A stretch of 64,000 nt of DNA from IMG/VR virus record IMGVR_UViG_3300033144_003548. One strand, given 5' to 3'. The stretch comes from a virus. Positions 1,922-13,844 of the stretch are shown here, piece after piece. Positions within the stretch are counted from its first letter, which is position 1. Every line of letters begins with the position of its first letter. The translations under genes were made by a program, and so were the position numbers. A model generated the notes under the pieces. It did not search any database, had not been told where the DNA came from, and worked only from the letters and a program-made list of their open reading frames with translations.

Positions 1922-2009
1922 TGGCGGAAAGGGAGGGATTCGAACCCTCGGTGCTGTTACACACACAGACTTAGCAGATCTGCACAATAAGCCACTCTGA
2001 CACCTTTCC
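1922..2009 (-). tRNA. tRNA-Ser(GCT)
   Basis: Arm CAGAT-CTGCTAA-GTCTG; long variable arm; G discriminator plus CCA. Confidence 0.93.
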
Positions 2010-2012
2010 AAA

Positions 2013-2107
2013 AGCTAGGGCTGTTACTTTCCCACCACAATCTACACCATAAGGCGGTCAGGGAACGAACTCCCCACTGAAGTCGTCCAAGGACCCTTGC
2101 CCTAGCT
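2013..2107 (-). ncRNA. unassigned structured RNA candidate within the tRNA cluster
   Basis: 9-bp terminal stem AGCTAGGGC/GCCCTAGCT enclosing a GGGGAGTTCGTTCCC hairpin; no ORF. Confidence 0.4.
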
Positions 2108-2406: not shown

Positions 2407-2484
2407 TGGTAGGGGTGACAGGGATCGAACCTGCATAGCTACTTGTTTGTAGGACAAGCGTTCCACCAATTGAACTACACCCCT
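2407..2484 (-). tRNA. tRNA-Val(TAC), atypical C33
   Basis: Acceptor AGGGGTG/CACCCCT; arm CTTGT-CCTACAA-ACAAG; GGTTCGATCCC; CCA. Confidence 0.88.
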
Positions 2485-6234: not shown

Positions 6235-8184
6235 TTAAACTAAGCCATCTTTAATCCTTTGAATTCGTGGTAAACACCAACGTTCCCTCCATTCTTCTAC
6301 TATTATATCAAATTCTTTATAGTTTGTCAAGTCCAATGTATCGGTCTCTTCTCTCAGGAACTCTCTGTAGTTCTTGGCAAGAGGAATGACGTAAACTCCT
6401 CTAAAGTTTTCGATACTTTGAACCTTCCAATACTTGGAAAGCTTTTGATACCCCTTCACCACTCCATACTTTTCTTTTATTGAACCATCTTCGTTATAGT
6501 AAATTTCGGAGTGCTTACCTTTGGTTTTCTTGAAATCCTCACGCATCTGCTGTTTAACTTCGAGTGGAACAAGAACAGAGGAATAACCTTTAGATGTACC
6601 TAGATAAATAAATCCATCTAATCTATTGTAGAGACTAGATTTACCGTAAAGAGAAGTTACAGTCATCATCGCTAACCGATGACCATATTTGTTTTCAAAA
6701 TAATCTTGAACCTCTTTACTTTTTGTGGATAGAGCACATAACTTACCTGCTAAATAATTACCAAATTCTGGTGTTGATATACAATGCTGCACATTCATCA
6801 GGTAATTGATTCTCTTGCCCTTCCACTTGTTTTGGTGTGTCCAACCTATAAATTTATCTCTGATGGGAATGGTCAAATCGCTAGCCAGCCCCACAATTCC
6901 AATAATAAATCCAGTTTCACGATCCCGAACTAAGTAATGAATCCTTCTACCAACTTCACCACTATTTCCGCACCAAACAGGTTTTCCATTTCTCCTCACC
7001 ATAATAATCTGATTGGGTACTGTTACGCAATATATCTTACCATCATAGTCTACCCAACTTCTTTTATCTTTATGTGAGTTAGGATTATATGTATTATAGG
7101 TAGGATTAAAAGTAACTATATACGCTTTATTTCCAACGCTATTGATATAGCTTCGTAATTTGGTATTATAACCAAGTTTAAGACATATTTCACTAATGTC
7201 ATCTGCTAATCTTTTAGATATAGTACTATACGTTCTCTCTCTACTACCATCATTCCTATCTCTATTACATCCATCTCCCAACATAGCAAAATCTAACAAT
7301 AGTCTTAATTGCTTTTTAGGTAATCCCTTTATACAGGTAGGAATGTACTTACTATCTCTTTTTCCTAGCTTATTAAAATAAGCTGCCCAAACTTTGTTAC
7401 CCAAAACGATTCTTCTACTCTTCGTAGACTTCTTCTGTAACGAATACTTAATACCAGCTTTATCTAGCACATCTAAAAATGTATCTAACTTATCACCAGT
7501 ATTTTGTGTAAAACAAACAGAATACTTTGTAGTATGACCTTCAGCCAGATAGAAACCAAGTATTGATACGAAGGTGTTAATATCTAATACGACATCATCA
7601 TAATGTTTACCTTTTGGGATATGATCAACTTTTGGTAGAGTAAAATAATCTATATGATTACCACACCAGTCAAATTTAGAAGTGTATCTAACACATCTAG
7701 TAGACTCATCAGCCCTAATCAAGTTAAAATCTAAATGCTTATCCCTACTTATAAATAAATTATGATTCGGAGTAACTAACAAATCTATGCTGCCACTTTG
7801 TTTAAACATCTTACCACTATAGTGCTCATTGACATAGTGTGTTGGTAGTTGATACTCCAGCTTATTAGTCTCTCTATTAAGCGTTGCCACCTTAACACTT
7901 GGTATTAAATCGCAAAATCGCATCCAACCAAGCTCAGTTAAAATGTCTGTTTCCTCGTCATAACAAAGGGGTGCAGATGAGACGGTAACACGACCGTACC
8001 ACCATAAATCATTCAAATCTTTAGTTTCACAAAACTCTATATATGGTTGAATCTTCTCTACATCAGGAACAATCGCTTGAACAGCTTCCCACTTCGGTCT
8101 AATTTGTCCCAAACGTTTTGCATTCTTATCAATGTACTGCTGCCTAGCCTCAAGCAGTCTTTCTCTCAACTCTTCCTTATCCAA
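6235..8184 (-). CDS. DUF4338/DruA-like protein, intein-containing
   Basis: Extein motifs SSAP..VGRRIHYLVRD..G.IIG, RD.FIGW, GKL, TSLYGKSSLYNRL, LGTSKG. Confidence 0.7.
   Translation of the reverse strand: MDKEELRERLLEARQQYIDKNAKRLGQIRPKWEAVQAIVPDVEKIQPYIEFCETKDLNDLWWYGRVTVSSAPLCYDEETDILTELGWMRFCDLIPSVKVATLNRETNKLEYQLPTHYVNEHYSGKMFKQSGSIDLLVTPNHNLFISRDKHLDFNLIRADESTRCVRYTSKFDWCGNHIDYFTLPKVDHIPKGKHYDDVVLDINTFVSILGFYLAEGHTTKYSVCFTQNTGDKLDTFLDVLDKAGIKYSLQKKSTKSRRIVLGNKVWAAYFNKLGKRDSKYIPTCIKGLPKKQLRLLLDFAMLGDGCNRDRNDGSRERTYSTISKRLADDISEICLKLGYNTKLRSYINSVGNKAYIVTFNPTYNTYNPNSHKDKRSWVDYDGKIYCVTVPNQIIMVRRNGKPVWCGNSGEVGRRIHYLVRDRETGFIIGIVGLASDLTIPIRDKFIGWTHQNKWKGKRINYLMNVQHCISTPEFGNYLAGKLCALSTKSKEVQDYFENKYGHRLAMMTVTSLYGKSSLYNRLDGFIYLGTSKGYSSVLVPLEVKQQMREDFKKTKGKHSEIYYNEDGSIKEKYGVVKGYQKLSKYWKVQSIENFRGVYVIPLAKNYREFLREETDTLDLTNYKEFDIIVEEWRERWCLPRIQRIKDGLV
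6964..7965 (-). mobile_element. intein (334 aa) with LAGLIDADG homing endonuclease
   Basis: N-terminal CYDEETDILTELGW, block B VTPNH, LGFYLAEG and AMLGDG motifs, C-terminal YCVTVPN..VRRNGK..WCGN/S. Confidence 0.92.
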
Positions 8185-11144: not shown

Positions 11145-11149
11145 ATAGT

Positions 11150-11320
11150 GCCTACTGGTAAAGAGAAGAAAGTGAAGTCGTTAGAATTTAAAAAACACTA
11201 AAAGGCTAAACACGTTTACGTCCTTTTGTCTAGTCTCTTTACCGATGGACATCACAATGGACTAGATAACATCTGCCAAAGTAGTAACAACTATTTCACA
11301 ATCTAATCCCACCAGTAGGC
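11150..11320 (-). ncRNA. structured ncRNA directly downstream of the Ro60 gene (divergent Y-like candidate)
   Basis: 10-bp terminal stem GCCTACTGGT/ACCAGTAGGC; inner GTGAA..AGTTGTTA/TAACGACTTCAC; hairpins TCTAGTC/GACTAGA and AAAAGG/CCTTTT. Confidence 0.6.
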
Positions 11321-11338
11321 TATCAAGCAATCACCCGA

Positions 11339-12655
11339 TTAAAAACCACCTGTTTCGTAAGCTCTAATGTAATTCAAGACGGCTTCTGACCAACCATCAA
11401 TGTGAGTCCAGTTGCCGTAACCTACACCTCTCTGGTAAGAAGCAACATTTATCATATAACCCCTACCATTTGGTTTGCCAACTCTATCACTTGACTGCTC
11501 ATCAGTTATAACAAGTAGTCGGTCATAATTTGTGTTATTAACTGCGTTAACAGCACCACCTAGAGAAGTTCCGCCGTGAGGCTGAGAATTAATTATAGCA
11601 TCCCTCAATGCAAATCCGTGCCTTGCAGCAACTCTCTTTGCATTATTTGAGAATGTCCATATCTCAGCATCATCTGACATTTCTCTAGCCAGTATTGCCA
11701 GACCACAAGCAGCATCCATCGCAGTTAACTCTGACTTACCAGACAACCTTGAACCCATACTGCCAGACACATCCACCAACACCGTAGTTTTACCATCCAA
11801 CTTACCCTGACTTGCAACAGCCTTGAACATAGCCTTTTCTAGTTCAGTTTCCCACTGGGGTGCGTGGCTAGCTGCTGTAATAAATCTAAATGGTAAAACT
11901 CTGTCTACCTTCATATGGTCTAGAGCATCCTTCACCAACACCTCATCGACACCAGATTGGTGCATATTCCTCAAGTTACGAAGCAGAGCCATAGCTCCAA
12001 GCTTCCCATCTTTGATTAAACGCTCAAAAGTATCCTTCTTATCCTTACCAGCACTTAAATTAACTTCCCAAGTATCAGGTGCTGCCAAAGTCCCATCAAC
12101 CAATTGCTTCCAAGTATCCACCTGTTCTTTGCTTGTTGGTTTTGGGTGAGTAAGGAACAAAACATCTCTCAACTTAACTTCAGCATCTCTATTGTACTTG
12201 GCAAGCTCGTATTCATCAAACTTAGGAAAAGCTTCTGCCAAACCCTTCTTAACTTGTGCTGACAAGGGTTGCCTGCCGTCCTTCCAGTAAATCTTCAAAA
12301 ACTCGGCAGGCTCATCTGCACGTTGCATTATTCTTGCCAAAGTTTCCTTTACCAAGTGCTTGTGAGTATTGTGCTTAGCCATTTCACGCACAATTAGCAA
12401 AGGAACGTGACGCAGCTTCATTTGCTCCCTAGCTTCGATAGCTATCTCAGCCACCTTCTCTGGTTTTACTTTAGGCACAAGATCAGCTATTCTTTGAGCA
12501 ATATCCTTTCCACTCTCGTAGAAAGTGTTCTCCCAAAGCAAGCAAGCCATAACTGACCTTCTTAGCTCCAGCTCAGGACTTATCCTTCTTGCTGGACCTC
12601 CCTCGTGTGTGTAGATAGGAACTCTTGTTCTTGTTGCCGTGTTTGTTCTCACCAT
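11339..12655 (-). CDS. rsr: Ro60/TROVE domain RNA-binding protein
   Basis: THEGG, ELRRSV.ACLLWE..FYESG, QRADE, FDEY.LAKY, DTWEV.LS, MALLRNLRN, LPFRF; vWA MIDAS DVSGSM, ITDEQ. Confidence 0.95.
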   Translation of the reverse strand: MVRTNTATRTRVPIYTHEGGPARRISPELELRRSVMACLLWENTFYESGKDIAQRIADLVPKVKPEKVAEIAIEAREQMKLRHVPLLIVREMAKHNTHKHLVKETLARIMQRADEPAEFLKIYWKDGRQPLSAQVKKGLAEAFPKFDEYELAKYNRDAEVKLRDVLFLTHPKPTSKEQVDTWKQLVDGTLAAPDTWEVNLSAGKDKKDTFERLIKDGKLGAMALLRNLRNMHQSGVDEVLVKDALDHMKVDRVLPFRFITAASHAPQWETELEKAMFKAVASQGKLDGKTTVLVDVSGSMGSRLSGKSELTAMDAACGLAILAREMSDDAEIWTFSNNAKRVAARHGFALRDAIINSQPHGGTSLGGAVNAVNNTNYDRLLVITDEQSSDRVGKPNGRGYMINVASYQRGVGYGNWTHIDGWSEAVLNYIRAYETGGF

Positions 12656-12680
12656 ATCTAACTCCTTTCCTTTAATAAAA

Positions 12681-12797
12681 ATAAGGGGAACAAGCGACTA
12701 GAGTACGTTATCCCCAACTCACTCTCACTAAGGAGAGCCGTTGGAGTATACAAACTTCAAATTCTGTACGAAGTAACTCTTGTCTTCACCACCTTAT
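12681..12797 (-). ncRNA. Y-RNA-like unit 1
   Basis: ATAAGG-TGGTGAAGACAAGAGTTACTTCG...GTACTCTAGTCGCTTGTTCC-CCTTAT. Confidence 0.8.
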
Positions 12798-12804
12798 ACC
12801 GATA

Positions 12805-12887
12805 ACGGGGGACAAGCGACTAGGCTCTGTCAAAGCGTTTATTTTGTGAAAATAATCTTACGAAGAAATCCTAATCTTCACCACCGT
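12805..12887 (-). ncRNA. Y-RNA-like unit 2
   Basis: ACGG-TGGTGAAGATTAGGATTTCTTCG...CCTAGTCGCTTGTCCC-CCGT. Confidence 0.78.
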
Positions 12888-12898
12888 CAAATTCCGAT

Positions 12899-13026
12899 TT
12901 TGGTAGGGAACAGACGACCAGAGTACAAGGCTTTCGCCTTTTCGCTGGAGTCGAACCAGCAAAGATTGTTTTCAGACAATTTGTATTCCATACACGAAGT
13001 ATCTCTAATCTATCACCACTACCAAA
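12899..13026 (-). ncRNA. Y-RNA-like unit 3 (contains a T-arm)
   Basis: TTTGGTAG-TGGTGATAGATTAGAGATACTTCG...GCTGGTTCGACTCCAGC...GTACTCTGGTCGTCTGTTCC-CTACCAAA. Confidence 0.8.
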
Positions 13027-13028
13027 TT

Positions 13029-13235
13029 TTAACGTTCTACTCTTTGTATTTTAAAGAGATTATATTCATTCTTATCAAAACACCCATTGGGACACTTTGC
13101 ATAAACTAACCACAGATTCCGATTACCTTTTTCGGCATAAGCAAATGTCAAAGTAGCACCGCATCTATTGCAAGGATTCTGCTCAAGCACTTTCGAAACA
13201 ACATCTCCTAACTCTACCGCCAAAGGTCTTGTCAT
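13029..13235 (-). CDS. small Zn-finger protein inside the Y-RNA array
   Basis: MTRPLAVE...CNRCG...CPNGC; RBS GGAG. Confidence 0.6.
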   Translation of the reverse strand: MTRPLAVELGDVVSKVLEQNPCNRCGATLTFAYAEKGNRNLWLVYAKCPNGCFDKNEYNLFKIQRVER

Positions 13236-13248
13236 AATTCTCCAAATA

Positions 13249-13344
13249 AGTAGGGAACAAGCGACTCCAGCAAAGCAGCCACCCACAATGGGTGGTTTGT
13301 ATTCGAATTAGCAGTTCGATGCAACTGAAATCTTCACCACTACT
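13249..13344 (-). ncRNA. Y-RNA-like unit 4 (anticodon-like arm)
   Basis: AGTAG-TGGTGAAGATTTCAGTTGCATCG...TGCTGGAGTCGCTTGTTCC-CTACT. Confidence 0.8.
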
Positions 13345-13355
13345 ATATTTCCGAT

Positions 13356-13486
13356 GGATAGGGTACAAGCGAAAAGAGTACAATAAGCGTCCTATCTTAG
13401 ACGAACCCCACTCGGTGGGGTGTAGGATTCGATACCTACATTACTGCATCCACACTGCGAAGTAACTCTCCTCTTCGCCACTATCC
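13356..13486 (-). ncRNA. YrlA-type Y RNA unit 5 (permuted tRNA-like domain)
   Basis: GGATAG-TGGCGAAGAGGAGAGTTACTTCG...T-arm, loop-closed acceptor stem, D-arm...GTACTCTTTTCGCTTGTACC-CTATCC. Confidence 0.85.
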
Positions 13487-13810: not shown

Positions 13811-13844
13811 ATTATAGCACATTAAAACCTAATTGTCAAGCCCC
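13811..13844 (-). promoter_or_regulatory. sigma70 promoter driving the Ro60/Y-RNA operon
   Basis: GGGGC-TTGACA-17nt-(TG)TATAAT. Confidence 0.85.

What the first reader, a model, noticed from the sequence alone, without database searches (positions are those of the whole stretch)
12805..13344. Anticodon-like stem-loops and a T-arm displayed as payloads inside Y-like RNAs
Seen: unit 4 contains TCGAA-CTGCTAA-TTCGA, a 5-bp stem with a 7-nt loop identical to the anticodon loop of this phage's tRNA-Ser(GCT) at 1922-2009. Unit 2 contains TTATT-TTCACAA-AATAA, an anticodon-arm geometry with CAC (Val). Unit 3 has ATTGT-CTGAAA-ACAAT (Phe-like loop, imperfect geometry), then a canonical T-arm GCTGG-TTCGACT-CCAGC and a GAAA tetraloop. 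Known: YrlA mimics the tRNA elbow but has no anticodon loop, and several anti-phage effectors cut anticodon loops. Inference: these could be Ro-protected decoys for anticodon nucleases, or bait for synthetases or modification enzymes.
Basis: partly seen in the sequence, partly recalled or inferred. Interest (0 to 1): 0.8.

Follow-up and report, generated by a model that had tools for sequence, protein, structure and literature searches.

The report
Anticodon-like hairpin in phage Y RNAs
A phage carries five small Y RNA genes in front of its Ro60 gene, and the anticodon-like hairpin in one of them is a recurrent part of this RNA family that looks like a tRNA anticodon arm, not a custom decoy of this phage.

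Summary
The described motifs are all present. The stretch holds three (U2-U4) of five tandem Y RNA genes (12680-13486, minus strand) upstream of a phage Ro60 gene. A covariance model built only from relatives finds exactly these five in the window.

- **U3:** the T-arm is a standard feature of bacterial and phage Y RNAs.
- **U4:** the hairpin is not a variable payload. It sits where the family's scaffold-proximal 'V' hairpin sits.
- **U2:** the hairpin has no homolog and is predicted to zip to a triloop.

Across about 400 related units the V hairpin prefers a 7-nt loop with C32, U33, three variable bases, A37 and A38 (44 such loops against 0.6 in shuffles). CUGCUAA is the commonest loop among the model-defined units. 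In long units a 4-5-nt linker and a T-arm follow, as in tRNA positions 27-65.

The identity with this phage's tRNA-Ser loop is therefore a family trait. V 'anticodons' do not track the tRNAs encoded nearby.

The nearest relatives of U4 lack the hairpin. The decoy idea remains untested; I put it at about 15%.

Verdict: a known kind (phage Ro60 with Y RNAs), with one feature I did not find described in the held literature. The earlier notes of this scan that I saw concern this same genome only.

The parts
11339..12655 (-). Ro60 ortholog (TROVE + vWA), 438 aa
   Evidence: Pfam TROVE E 1e-17, VWA_2, vWA_Ro60; PHROG 850 RNA-binding protein E 1.2e-52
12680..12797 (-). Y RNA unit U1
   Evidence: Model R1 58 bits, E 1.2e-13; homologs in L016, L096, L098
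12802..12889 (-). Y RNA unit U2 (short; no homolog found in syntenic relatives)
   Evidence: R1 43.8 bits, E 9.7e-10
12839..12855 (-). U2 hairpin, all A-U stem, nominal 7-nt loop with CAC
   Evidence: Sequence; predicted to zip to a 3-nt loop
12900..13024 (-). Y RNA unit U3 with a tRNA-like module
   Evidence: R1 46 bits, E 2.5e-10; fold z -4.39; weak tRNA match of 15.5 bits, below the 29-bit cut-off
12965..12980 (-). U3 hairpin, 5-bp stem and 6-nt loop, 4 nt upstream of the T-arm (V / 'anticodon arm' position)
   Evidence: L016 homolog has a 5-bp stem and 7-nt loop here
12944..12960 (-). U3 T-arm (5-bp stem, 7-nt UUCGA-type loop)
   Evidence: Pair probabilities 1.0; conserved in the L016 and L098 homologs
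12927..12940 (-). U3 GAAA-capped hairpin after the T-arm (position of the acceptor-like stem-loop)
   Evidence: L016 homolog has a UUCG-capped hairpin here
13029..13235 (-). Small Cys-rich (zinc-ribbon-like) ORF, 68 aa, inside the Y RNA array
   Evidence: No Pfam or PHROG hit; 56% and 48% identical syntenic ORFs in L097 and L098
13247..13345 (-). Y RNA unit U4
   Evidence: R1 49.5 bits, E 2.7e-11; fold z -2.99; U4-type homologs in L016 and L098
13303..13319 (-). U4 scaffold-proximal hairpin: 5-bp stem, 7-nt loop CUGCUAA
   Evidence: same loop at the same offset in relatives; stem covaries
13355..13486 (-). Y RNA unit U5, degenerate YrlA type (T-arm, acceptor-like hairpin, D-like hairpin in that order)
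   Evidence: R1 43.9 bits, E 9.4e-10; sequence read; L016 has a classic YrlA at the same array position
13811..13839 (-). Consensus sigma-70-type promoter, the nearest one upstream of the array
   Evidence: 12 of 12 hexamer matches with TG extension. No good promoter inside the array; the one terminator-like match, at 13403-13388 inside U5, overlaps its D-like hairpin
1922..2009 (-). tRNA-Ser(GCU), whose anticodon loop equals the U4 loop
   Evidence: ARAGORN, Rfam 48.3 bits, sequence

Best explanation
The stretch is part of a tandem array of five Y RNA genes (U1-U5). The array is probably transcribed together with the downstream phage Ro60 gene. Each unit has the family's constant scaffold: a terminal stem, an internal loop carrying the GG(U/C)GAAG motif (the presumed Ro60 contact), and a second stem. 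A variable distal part follows.

What each feature is:
- The T-arm in U3, and the T / acceptor-like / D order in U5, are the known tRNA-like modules of bacterial and phage Y RNAs.
- The U4 hairpin occupies the position of the first hairpin after the scaffold, which Chen et al. called 'V'. Its stem differs from the family's UUACUUC-based stem, and its two nearest orthologs lack the hairpin, so whether it is inherited or regained is open.
- The U3 hairpin is the same kind of element, placed 4 nt before a T-arm but not next to the scaffold.
- The U2 hairpin is most likely a lineage-specific chance hairpin.

Across the family the V hairpin has the signature of a tRNA anticodon arm: a 4-5-bp stem and a 7-nt loop with C32, U33, three variable bases, A37 and A38. 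In the long units a 4-5-nt linker and a T-arm follow, in the same order and spacing as tRNA positions 27-65.

I infer that the V hairpin descends from a tRNA anticodon arm and is kept as part of the tRNA-like surface that the Ro60-Y RNA particle shows to tRNA-binding partners. Which partner it binds, if any, is unknown.
For: Shown:
- Ro60 gene identified.
- Scaffold structure: all 16 pairs show compensatory changes in 45 independent units.
- The model built from relatives finds exactly five hits in the 64-kb window, all here, E 1e-9 to 1e-13.
- The same model gives 260 hits in 95 related loci, all on the Ro60 strand. It also finds arrays of 5 and 8 units in two cultured phages.
- The motif CUG(C/U)UAA is ten times denser inside units than outside. 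17 of 18 copies lie at offset 28-31 of the unit, and 15 of 18 have at least 4 flanking pairs.
- Proximal hairpins peak at a 7-nt loop: 61 against 10.1 +/- 2.9 in shuffles. Profile: C32 75%, U33 82%, A37 67%, A38 74%.
- With model-defined units only: 23 of 36 seven-nt loops fit Y-U-NNN-R-N, and GCU is the commonest triplet.
- The hairpin stem covaries.
- 10 of 34 distinct V loops equal a natural tRNA anticodon loop of the same data set, against 3.67 +/- 1.49 for column-permuted loops (0 of 2000 reach 10). The V-to-T gap is 4-5 nt in 29 of 32.
- ARAGORN and GenBank annotators call 'tRNAs' inside Y units, using V as the anticodon arm.

From the literature:
- T, AS, D and V arms of YrlA, and the 5-bp/6-nt 'anticodon arm' of Yrn1 (PMC4201824).
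- A phage Ro60 binds upstream Y-like RNAs and host PNPase in vitro (PMC12135203).
Against: - Only about 10-15% of units carry the anticodon-like hairpin, and many stems have 4 rather than 5 pairs.
- The two nearest U4-type relatives lack it: L016 has a shortened segment, and L098 has a 5-bp stem with a 4-nt loop.
- The U4 stem does not use the family's usual UUACUUC strand, so homology rests on position and on the loop.
- The bacterial units were found with a heuristic, not with the model, and include some double counts.
- The hairpins used for the covariation count were chosen for pairing, which biases it.
- No expression, Ro60-binding or structure-probing data exist for this phage.
Confidence: 0.7

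Rival explanations
1. One reading: the anticodon-like hairpins are functional mimics held on Ro60. They would act as decoys or competitive inhibitors for host anticodon nucleases, or as bait for modification enzymes or synthetases.
For: - The loop signature is conserved, and the loops resemble natural anticodon loops beyond per-position composition.
- Identical stems in related bacterial YrlA units carry different triplets, which could reflect selection on the triplet.
- Hughes et al. 2020 raised competitive inhibition of an anticodon nuclease by YrlA (PMC7790460).
- The setting is a phage that also carries 8 tRNAs.
Against: - V triplets do not match the tRNAs encoded in the same locus more than chance (2 of 13 against 2.71).
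- The triplets are dominated by GCU and GUU rather than spread over many targets.
- Most units lack the hairpin, and the closest U4 orthologs have lost it or never had it.
- I did not look for, and did not see, a link to any defence or nuclease gene.
- Variable triplets are equally expected if positions 34-36 are simply unconstrained.
Confidence: 0.15
2. Chance: the hairpins in U2, U3 and U4 are ordinary distal hairpins of fast-evolving Y RNAs, and their likeness to anticodon arms is coincidence.
For: - U2 has no homolog and zips shut.
- Distal payload hairpins other than T-arms show only weak enrichment of anticodon-like loops (6 against 0.94, one of them a T-loop variant).
- The nearest orthologs of U4 differ at this hairpin.
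Against: - For U4, the same 7-nt loop at the same offset occurs in at least 8 independent units.
- The family-wide loop profile is far outside the shuffles.
- For U3, the hairpin, short linker and T-arm arrangement recurs in L016.
Confidence: 0.08
3. Processing signals: the tRNA-like pieces (T-arm, anticodon-like arm) mainly recruit tRNA-processing nucleases such as RNase P or RNase Z. These would cut the long transcript into single Y RNAs and the Ro60 and small-ORF mRNAs.
For: - One strong promoter lies upstream, with no convincing terminator inside the array; the single consensus match overlaps U5's D-like hairpin.
- M. smegmatis YrlA and YrlB come from one precursor, and that YrlA is cut by RNase P (PMC4201824).
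- Elsewhere in this window tRNAs punctuate the genes.
Against: - Only U3 and U5 have T-arms.
- U3's candidate acceptor-like pairing is only 3-4 bp, far short of the 7-bp stem with a free 3' end that Chen et al. tie to RNase P cleavage.
- The anticodon arm is not a known determinant for RNase P or RNase Z (my own knowledge).
Confidence: 0.07

Closest known systems
YrlA-class bacterial and phage Y RNAs (Chen et al. 2014, PMC4201824; structure in bioRxiv 10.1101/312249)
   Same: - Encoded next to Ro60 on the same strand.
- 5' motif of the GNCGAA(N)G type.
- Conserved YUAY before a 'V' stem-loop.
- T-arm, closed acceptor-like hairpin and D-arm (U5, and many units in relatives).
- 22 phages were already listed by Chen et al.
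   Different: - Most units here have U instead of C in the motif (GGUGAAG).
- Only U5 keeps the full T / AS / D order, and in degenerate form.
- The papers call V 'less conserved' and liken it to a variable arm. They state that YrlA lacks an anticodon loop. They do not mention the anticodon-loop signature found here.
Deinococcus radiodurans Yrn1 (Chen et al. 2014)
   Same: U3 has the arrangement described for Yrn1: a D-like hairpin, an 'anticodon arm' with a 5-bp stem and a 6-nt loop, then a T-arm, in native tRNA order.
   Different: - I did not compare the sequences directly, because no Yrn1 sequence was at hand.
- U3 has an extra GAAA-capped hairpin after the T-arm.
- The Ro60-binding helix of Yrn1 is said to be closer to the metazoan type.
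Thermus phage phiLo Ro60 with Yrl1 and Yrl2 (NAR 2025, PMC12135203)
   Same: - Phage Ro60 gene with Y-like RNA genes directly upstream.
- Stem, bulge, stem layout with a CGAA-type motif.
- Shown there to bind the phage Ro60 and host PNPase in vitro.
   Different: - Two units there, five here.
- That paper's text does not use the terms 'tRNA-like', 'YrlA' or 'anticodon'.
- phiLo was not among the listed tblastn hits.
tRNA anticodon stem-loop
   Same: - 7-nt loop with C32, U33 and A37/A38, and in U4 a 5-bp stem.
- The U4 loop equals the loop of tRNA-Ser(GCU).
- In long units, a 4-5-nt linker and T-arm follow, as in tRNA.
   Different: - No cloverleaf: ARAGORN calls none in the array and Rfam stays below its threshold.
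- Family stems are often 4 bp.
- No acceptor end, so it cannot be charged.

Membership tests
Bacterial/phage Y RNA (YrlA/YrlB/Yrn class) | Encoded within a few kb of a Ro60 (TROVE) gene, on the same strand | tested here: met
   The units lie 25-830 nt upstream of the Ro60 start on the minus strand. All 260 hits in relatives are on the Ro60 strand.
Bacterial/phage Y RNA (YrlA/YrlB/Yrn class) | 5' motif GNCGAA(N0-1)G in an internal loop closed by a 5'-3' terminal stem | tested here: met
   U5 has the exact motif. U1, U2 and U4 have the U-for-C variant, and U3 a further variant. The terminal stem and second stem covary at 16 of 16 pairs.
Bacterial/phage Y RNA (YrlA/YrlB/Yrn class) | Bound and stabilised by Ro60 | not testable with these tools
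   Needs EMSA or immunoprecipitation. No sequencing run was listed.
YrlA subtype (circularly permuted tRNA mimic) | T-arm, closed acceptor-like hairpin and D-arm, in that order | tested here: inconclusive
   U5 has the order, but with an 8-nt T-loop and a weak D-like hairpin. U3 has only a T-arm plus a capped hairpin. U1, U2 and U4 have none. Rfam reported no Y RNA family match, even for classic-looking units in relatives.
tRNA gene | Cloverleaf with acceptor stem, scored by ARAGORN or Rfam RF00005 | tested here: not met
   ARAGORN makes no call in 12680-13486. The best Rfam tRNA score is 15.5 bits in U3, against a 29-bit cut-off.
Anticodon stem-loop mimic | 5-bp stem, 7-nt loop, U33 and purine 37, kept across homologs | tested here: inconclusive
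   Met in U4 itself and at family level at the same position. Not met in the two nearest U4 orthologs. Many family stems have 4 pairs.
Anticodon stem-loop mimic | Recognised by an enzyme that reads anticodon loops (nuclease, modification enzyme) | not testable with these tools
   Needs biochemical assays.

The most novel reading that the evidence does not exclude
Many Ro60-associated Y RNAs of bacteria and phages carry a true anticodon stem-loop: the 'V' hairpin, followed by a normal variable loop and T-arm. On this reading the Ro60-binding helix is inserted at tRNA position 26, rather than replacing the anticodon arm. The 'anticodon' changes quickly on a constant stem while obeying natural loop rules. 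Ro60-Y RNA particles would then present near-complete tRNA mimics that titrate or sense enzymes acting on anticodon loops, for example anticodon nucleases in conflicts between phages and hosts.
Probability: 0.15. Interest if true: 0.8.

Novelty: new variant of a known kind. Interest (0 to 1): 0.55.

Why it matters
Phage Ro60 with Y RNAs is known, so the locus itself is an ordinary new member.

What may be new is that the poorly regarded 'V' hairpin of these RNAs carries the statistical signature of an anticodon loop, and is followed by a tRNA-like linker and T-arm. If that holds, the current picture of YrlA as a tRNA mimic without an anticodon loop needs revising for most family members. It would also give a concrete handle on the long-open question of what the tRNA-like part of bacterial Y RNAs binds.

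There is a practical warning for annotation as well. tRNA finders call false tRNAs inside Y RNA arrays, for example the 'tRNA-Thr' of Xanthomonas phage 10KY502B and the 'tRNA-Gln' of Caulobacter phage CcrColossus.

Tried and rejected
- **Rfam:** no Y RNA family match at E up to 10 in the window, nor at gathering score in relatives with classic-looking units. Rfam is therefore silent on this family, and that is not evidence against it.
- **DNA similarity:** blastn of the array against phage records found nothing. An exact search for the U4 hairpin in viral contigs found nothing.
- **Whole genome:** none is held. The window's own Ro60 is not on record in the contig index.
- **Sequencing runs:** none was listed, and no RNA holder was listed.
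- **Loose regex scans** for units were too unspecific and were replaced by the covariance model.
- **First payload census** started after the conserved UUACUUC strand, so it cut the proximal hairpin and understated the signal. Searches corrected this.
- **Sense versus antisense control** for the loop pattern was uninformative, because the commonest loop fits both readings.
- **'V loop copies a tRNA of the same phage':** rejected.
- **'The U4 hairpin is a captured piece of the tRNA-Ser gene':** rejected, because the stems differ.
- **Review by Sim et al. 2020:** not held.

Full report
**1. What is at the site**

All genes in this part of the window read on the minus strand. The ORF at 11339-12655 is a Ro60 ortholog: TROVE E 1e-17 plus vWA domains, and PHROG 850 'RNA-binding protein' E 1.2e-52.

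The neighbouring genes mark a phage replication and early region:
- DNA polymerase A
- RecA
- dCMP deaminase
- PD-(D/E)XK nuclease
- metallophosphatase
- two MT-A70 methylases

The window also holds eight tRNA genes.

Upstream of Ro60 lie five units that share their 5' and 3' ends. A 68-aa ORF sits between the fourth and third unit. The nearest strong promoter is at 13839-13811. No good promoter lies inside the array. The one terminator-like match (13403-13388, in U5) overlaps its D-like hairpin, so co-transcription with Ro60 is likely but not shown.

**2. The units are Y RNAs**

I collected 95 related loci through the Ro60 protein. I aligned 45 short units from them, none from the window.
- The consensus fold has a 6+2-bp terminal stem, an internal loop with GG(U/C)GAAG, and an 8-bp second stem.
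- All 16 pairs show compensatory changes.

The covariance model built from this alignment gave these results:
- In the 64-kb window it finds exactly five hits: 12680-12797, 12802-12889, 12900-13024, 13247-13345 and 13355-13486. E-values run from 1e-13 to 1e-9.
- In the 95 loci it finds 260 hits, every one on the Ro60 strand, in arrays of 2 to 7.
- Xanthomonas phage 10KY502B has five units.
- Caulobacter phage CcrColossus has eight.
- crAss001 has one, downstream of Ro60.

Phage Ro60 with upstream Y-like RNAs is established:
- Chen et al. 2014 list 22 phages (PMC4201824).
- Thermus phage phiLo Ro60 binds two such RNAs and host PNPase in vitro (PMC12135203).

**3. Checking the observation**

The three described hairpins, the T-arm and the GAAA hairpin are all present. 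The U4 loop equals the anticodon loop of the window's tRNA-Ser(GCU), but the stems differ.

Predicted pairing:
- The U4 hairpin forms with an open loop (0.82-1.0).
- The U3 hairpins form.
- The U2 loop closes to three bases.

**4. T-arm and U3**

T-arms are the hallmark of YrlA, Yrn1 and M. smegmatis YrlB. In related units, 59 of the 92 five-bp/7-nt hairpins are T-loops.

Chen et al. describe D. radiodurans Yrn1 as having an 'anticodon arm' with a 5-bp stem and a 6-nt loop before the T-arm. That is the U3 layout. The U3-type unit of the closest array (L016, Ro60 72% identical) keeps three features:
- a hairpin with a 5-bp stem and a 7-nt loop
- a 3-nt linker
- the T-arm and a capped hairpin

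The L098 homolog keeps only the T-arm.

**5. U4: not a payload**

My first census skipped the strand UUACUUC and saw little. Folding whole units then showed the loop CUGCUAA, or close variants, again and again directly after that strand.

An unbiased count gives the following:
- CUG(C/U)UAA occurs 18 times in 20.6 kb of units (0.87 per kb), against 0.083 per kb outside.
- 17 of the 18 lie at offset 28-31 of the unit.
- 15 of the 18 have at least four flanking pairs.

U4 carries the loop at offset 31. This hairpin is what Chen et al. call the V stem-loop, which begins after the conserved YUAY.

I then anchored on the conserved strand without assuming any loop sequence, using 405 non-redundant units:
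- 186 have a proximal hairpin.
- Loop length peaks at 7 nt: 61, against 10.1 +/- 2.9 in shuffles.
- The profile is C32 75%, U33 82%, positions 34-36 variable, A37 67%, A38 74%.
- 44 loops fit Y-U-NNN-R-N, against 0.62 +/- 0.74.
- 27 fit CU...AA, against 0.06.

With model-defined units only (219 clusters at about 80% identity), 36 loops have 7 nt and 23 fit the pattern. GCU is the commonest triplet. The stem covaries, although I chose those hairpins for pairing.

**6. Likeness to real anticodon arms**

I removed ARAGORN calls that overlap Y units and compared V loops with natural tRNA loops from the same loci:
- 10 of 34 distinct V loops equal a natural anticodon loop.
- Loops with permuted columns give 3.67 +/- 1.49, and none of 2000 permutations reaches 10.

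Two further observations fit:
- In T-arm units the gap from V to the T stem is 4-5 nt in 29 of 32, often AGGUC-like. This is the ordinary tRNA variable loop.
- ARAGORN and the GenBank annotators read V as an anticodon arm and call false tRNAs inside units.

In related Acidobacteria, one constant stem carries many different triplets, and G37 follows G36 in the few cases seen. The numbers are small and the unit finder there was heuristic.

The secondary structure is the same as in Chen's model. What is open is which helix, V or the scaffold stem, takes the anticodon-arm place in three dimensions. The only solved YrlA lacks V.

**7. Limits**

- Only 10-15% of units have the hairpin.
- Many stems have four pairs.
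- The two nearest U4-type units lack it. U4 may therefore have kept it or regained it.
- U2 has no homolog. At its place in the array L016 has a small acceptor-plus-T-arm element instead.

**8. Function**

V triplets do not match the tRNAs encoded in the same locus (2 of 13, against 2.71 expected). The match with this phage's tRNA-Ser is therefore a family trait.

The decoy idea has a printed precursor for YrlA (PMC7790460), but nothing here tests it.

My reading is as follows. These are Ro60-binding Y RNAs whose tRNA-derived parts, including an anticodon-arm relic, form a tRNA-like surface for partners that are still unknown. I put active mimicry of the anticodon loop at about 0.3, and decoy action against nucleases at about 0.15.

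**9. Novelty**

None of the 37 papers in the held library that contain 'YrlA' has a title or abstract on this topic. The key ones I read (PMC4201824, bioRxiv 10.1101/312249, PMC7790460, PMC12135203) do not describe an anticodon-like V loop. The main review was not available. I therefore rate the finding as a new variant of a known kind.

Noticed in passing
window 13029-13235 (-): A 68-aa Cys-rich, zinc-ribbon-like ORF sits inside the Y RNA array, just upstream of the U3-type unit. Syntenic ORFs in L097 and L098 are 56% and 48% identical. It has no Pfam or PHROG family.
   Followed up: partly
window 11145-11338 (-): The 194-nt non-coding stretch between Ro60 and tRNA-Gly folds well (z -3.7) with a long closing stem. 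Pieces of it recall the Y scaffold, but the Y RNA model does not hit it.
   Followed up: partly
window 2407-2484 (-): The phage tRNA-Val(UAC) is predicted to have C instead of the near-universal U at position 33 of the anticodon loop.
   Followed up: no
window 2014-2106 (-): Between tRNA-Ile and tRNA-Ser lies an approximately 93-nt element closed by a 9-bp stem, with a T-arm-like hairpin inside. Its fold is not better than shuffles (z -1.2).
   Followed up: partly
L016 about 1815-1860: In the closest related array, the place of U2 is taken by a mini tRNA-like element that has only a 7-bp acceptor-like stem and a T-arm.
   Followed up: no
L184 2322-2389 and L183 1673-1740: The annotated 'tRNA-Thr' of Xanthomonas phage 10KY502B and 'tRNA-Gln' of Caulobacter phage CcrColossus lie inside Y RNA units and are probably false tRNA calls.
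   Followed up: partly
window 6235-8184 (-): A 649-aa protein combines a DruA (Druantia) domain match with a LAGLIDADG-like domain, in a phage genome.
   Followed up: no
L110, L117, L125 (Acidobacteria): In several bacterial loci the Ro60 gene lies near a cluster made mostly of class II tRNAs (Leu, Ser, Tyr).
   Followed up: no
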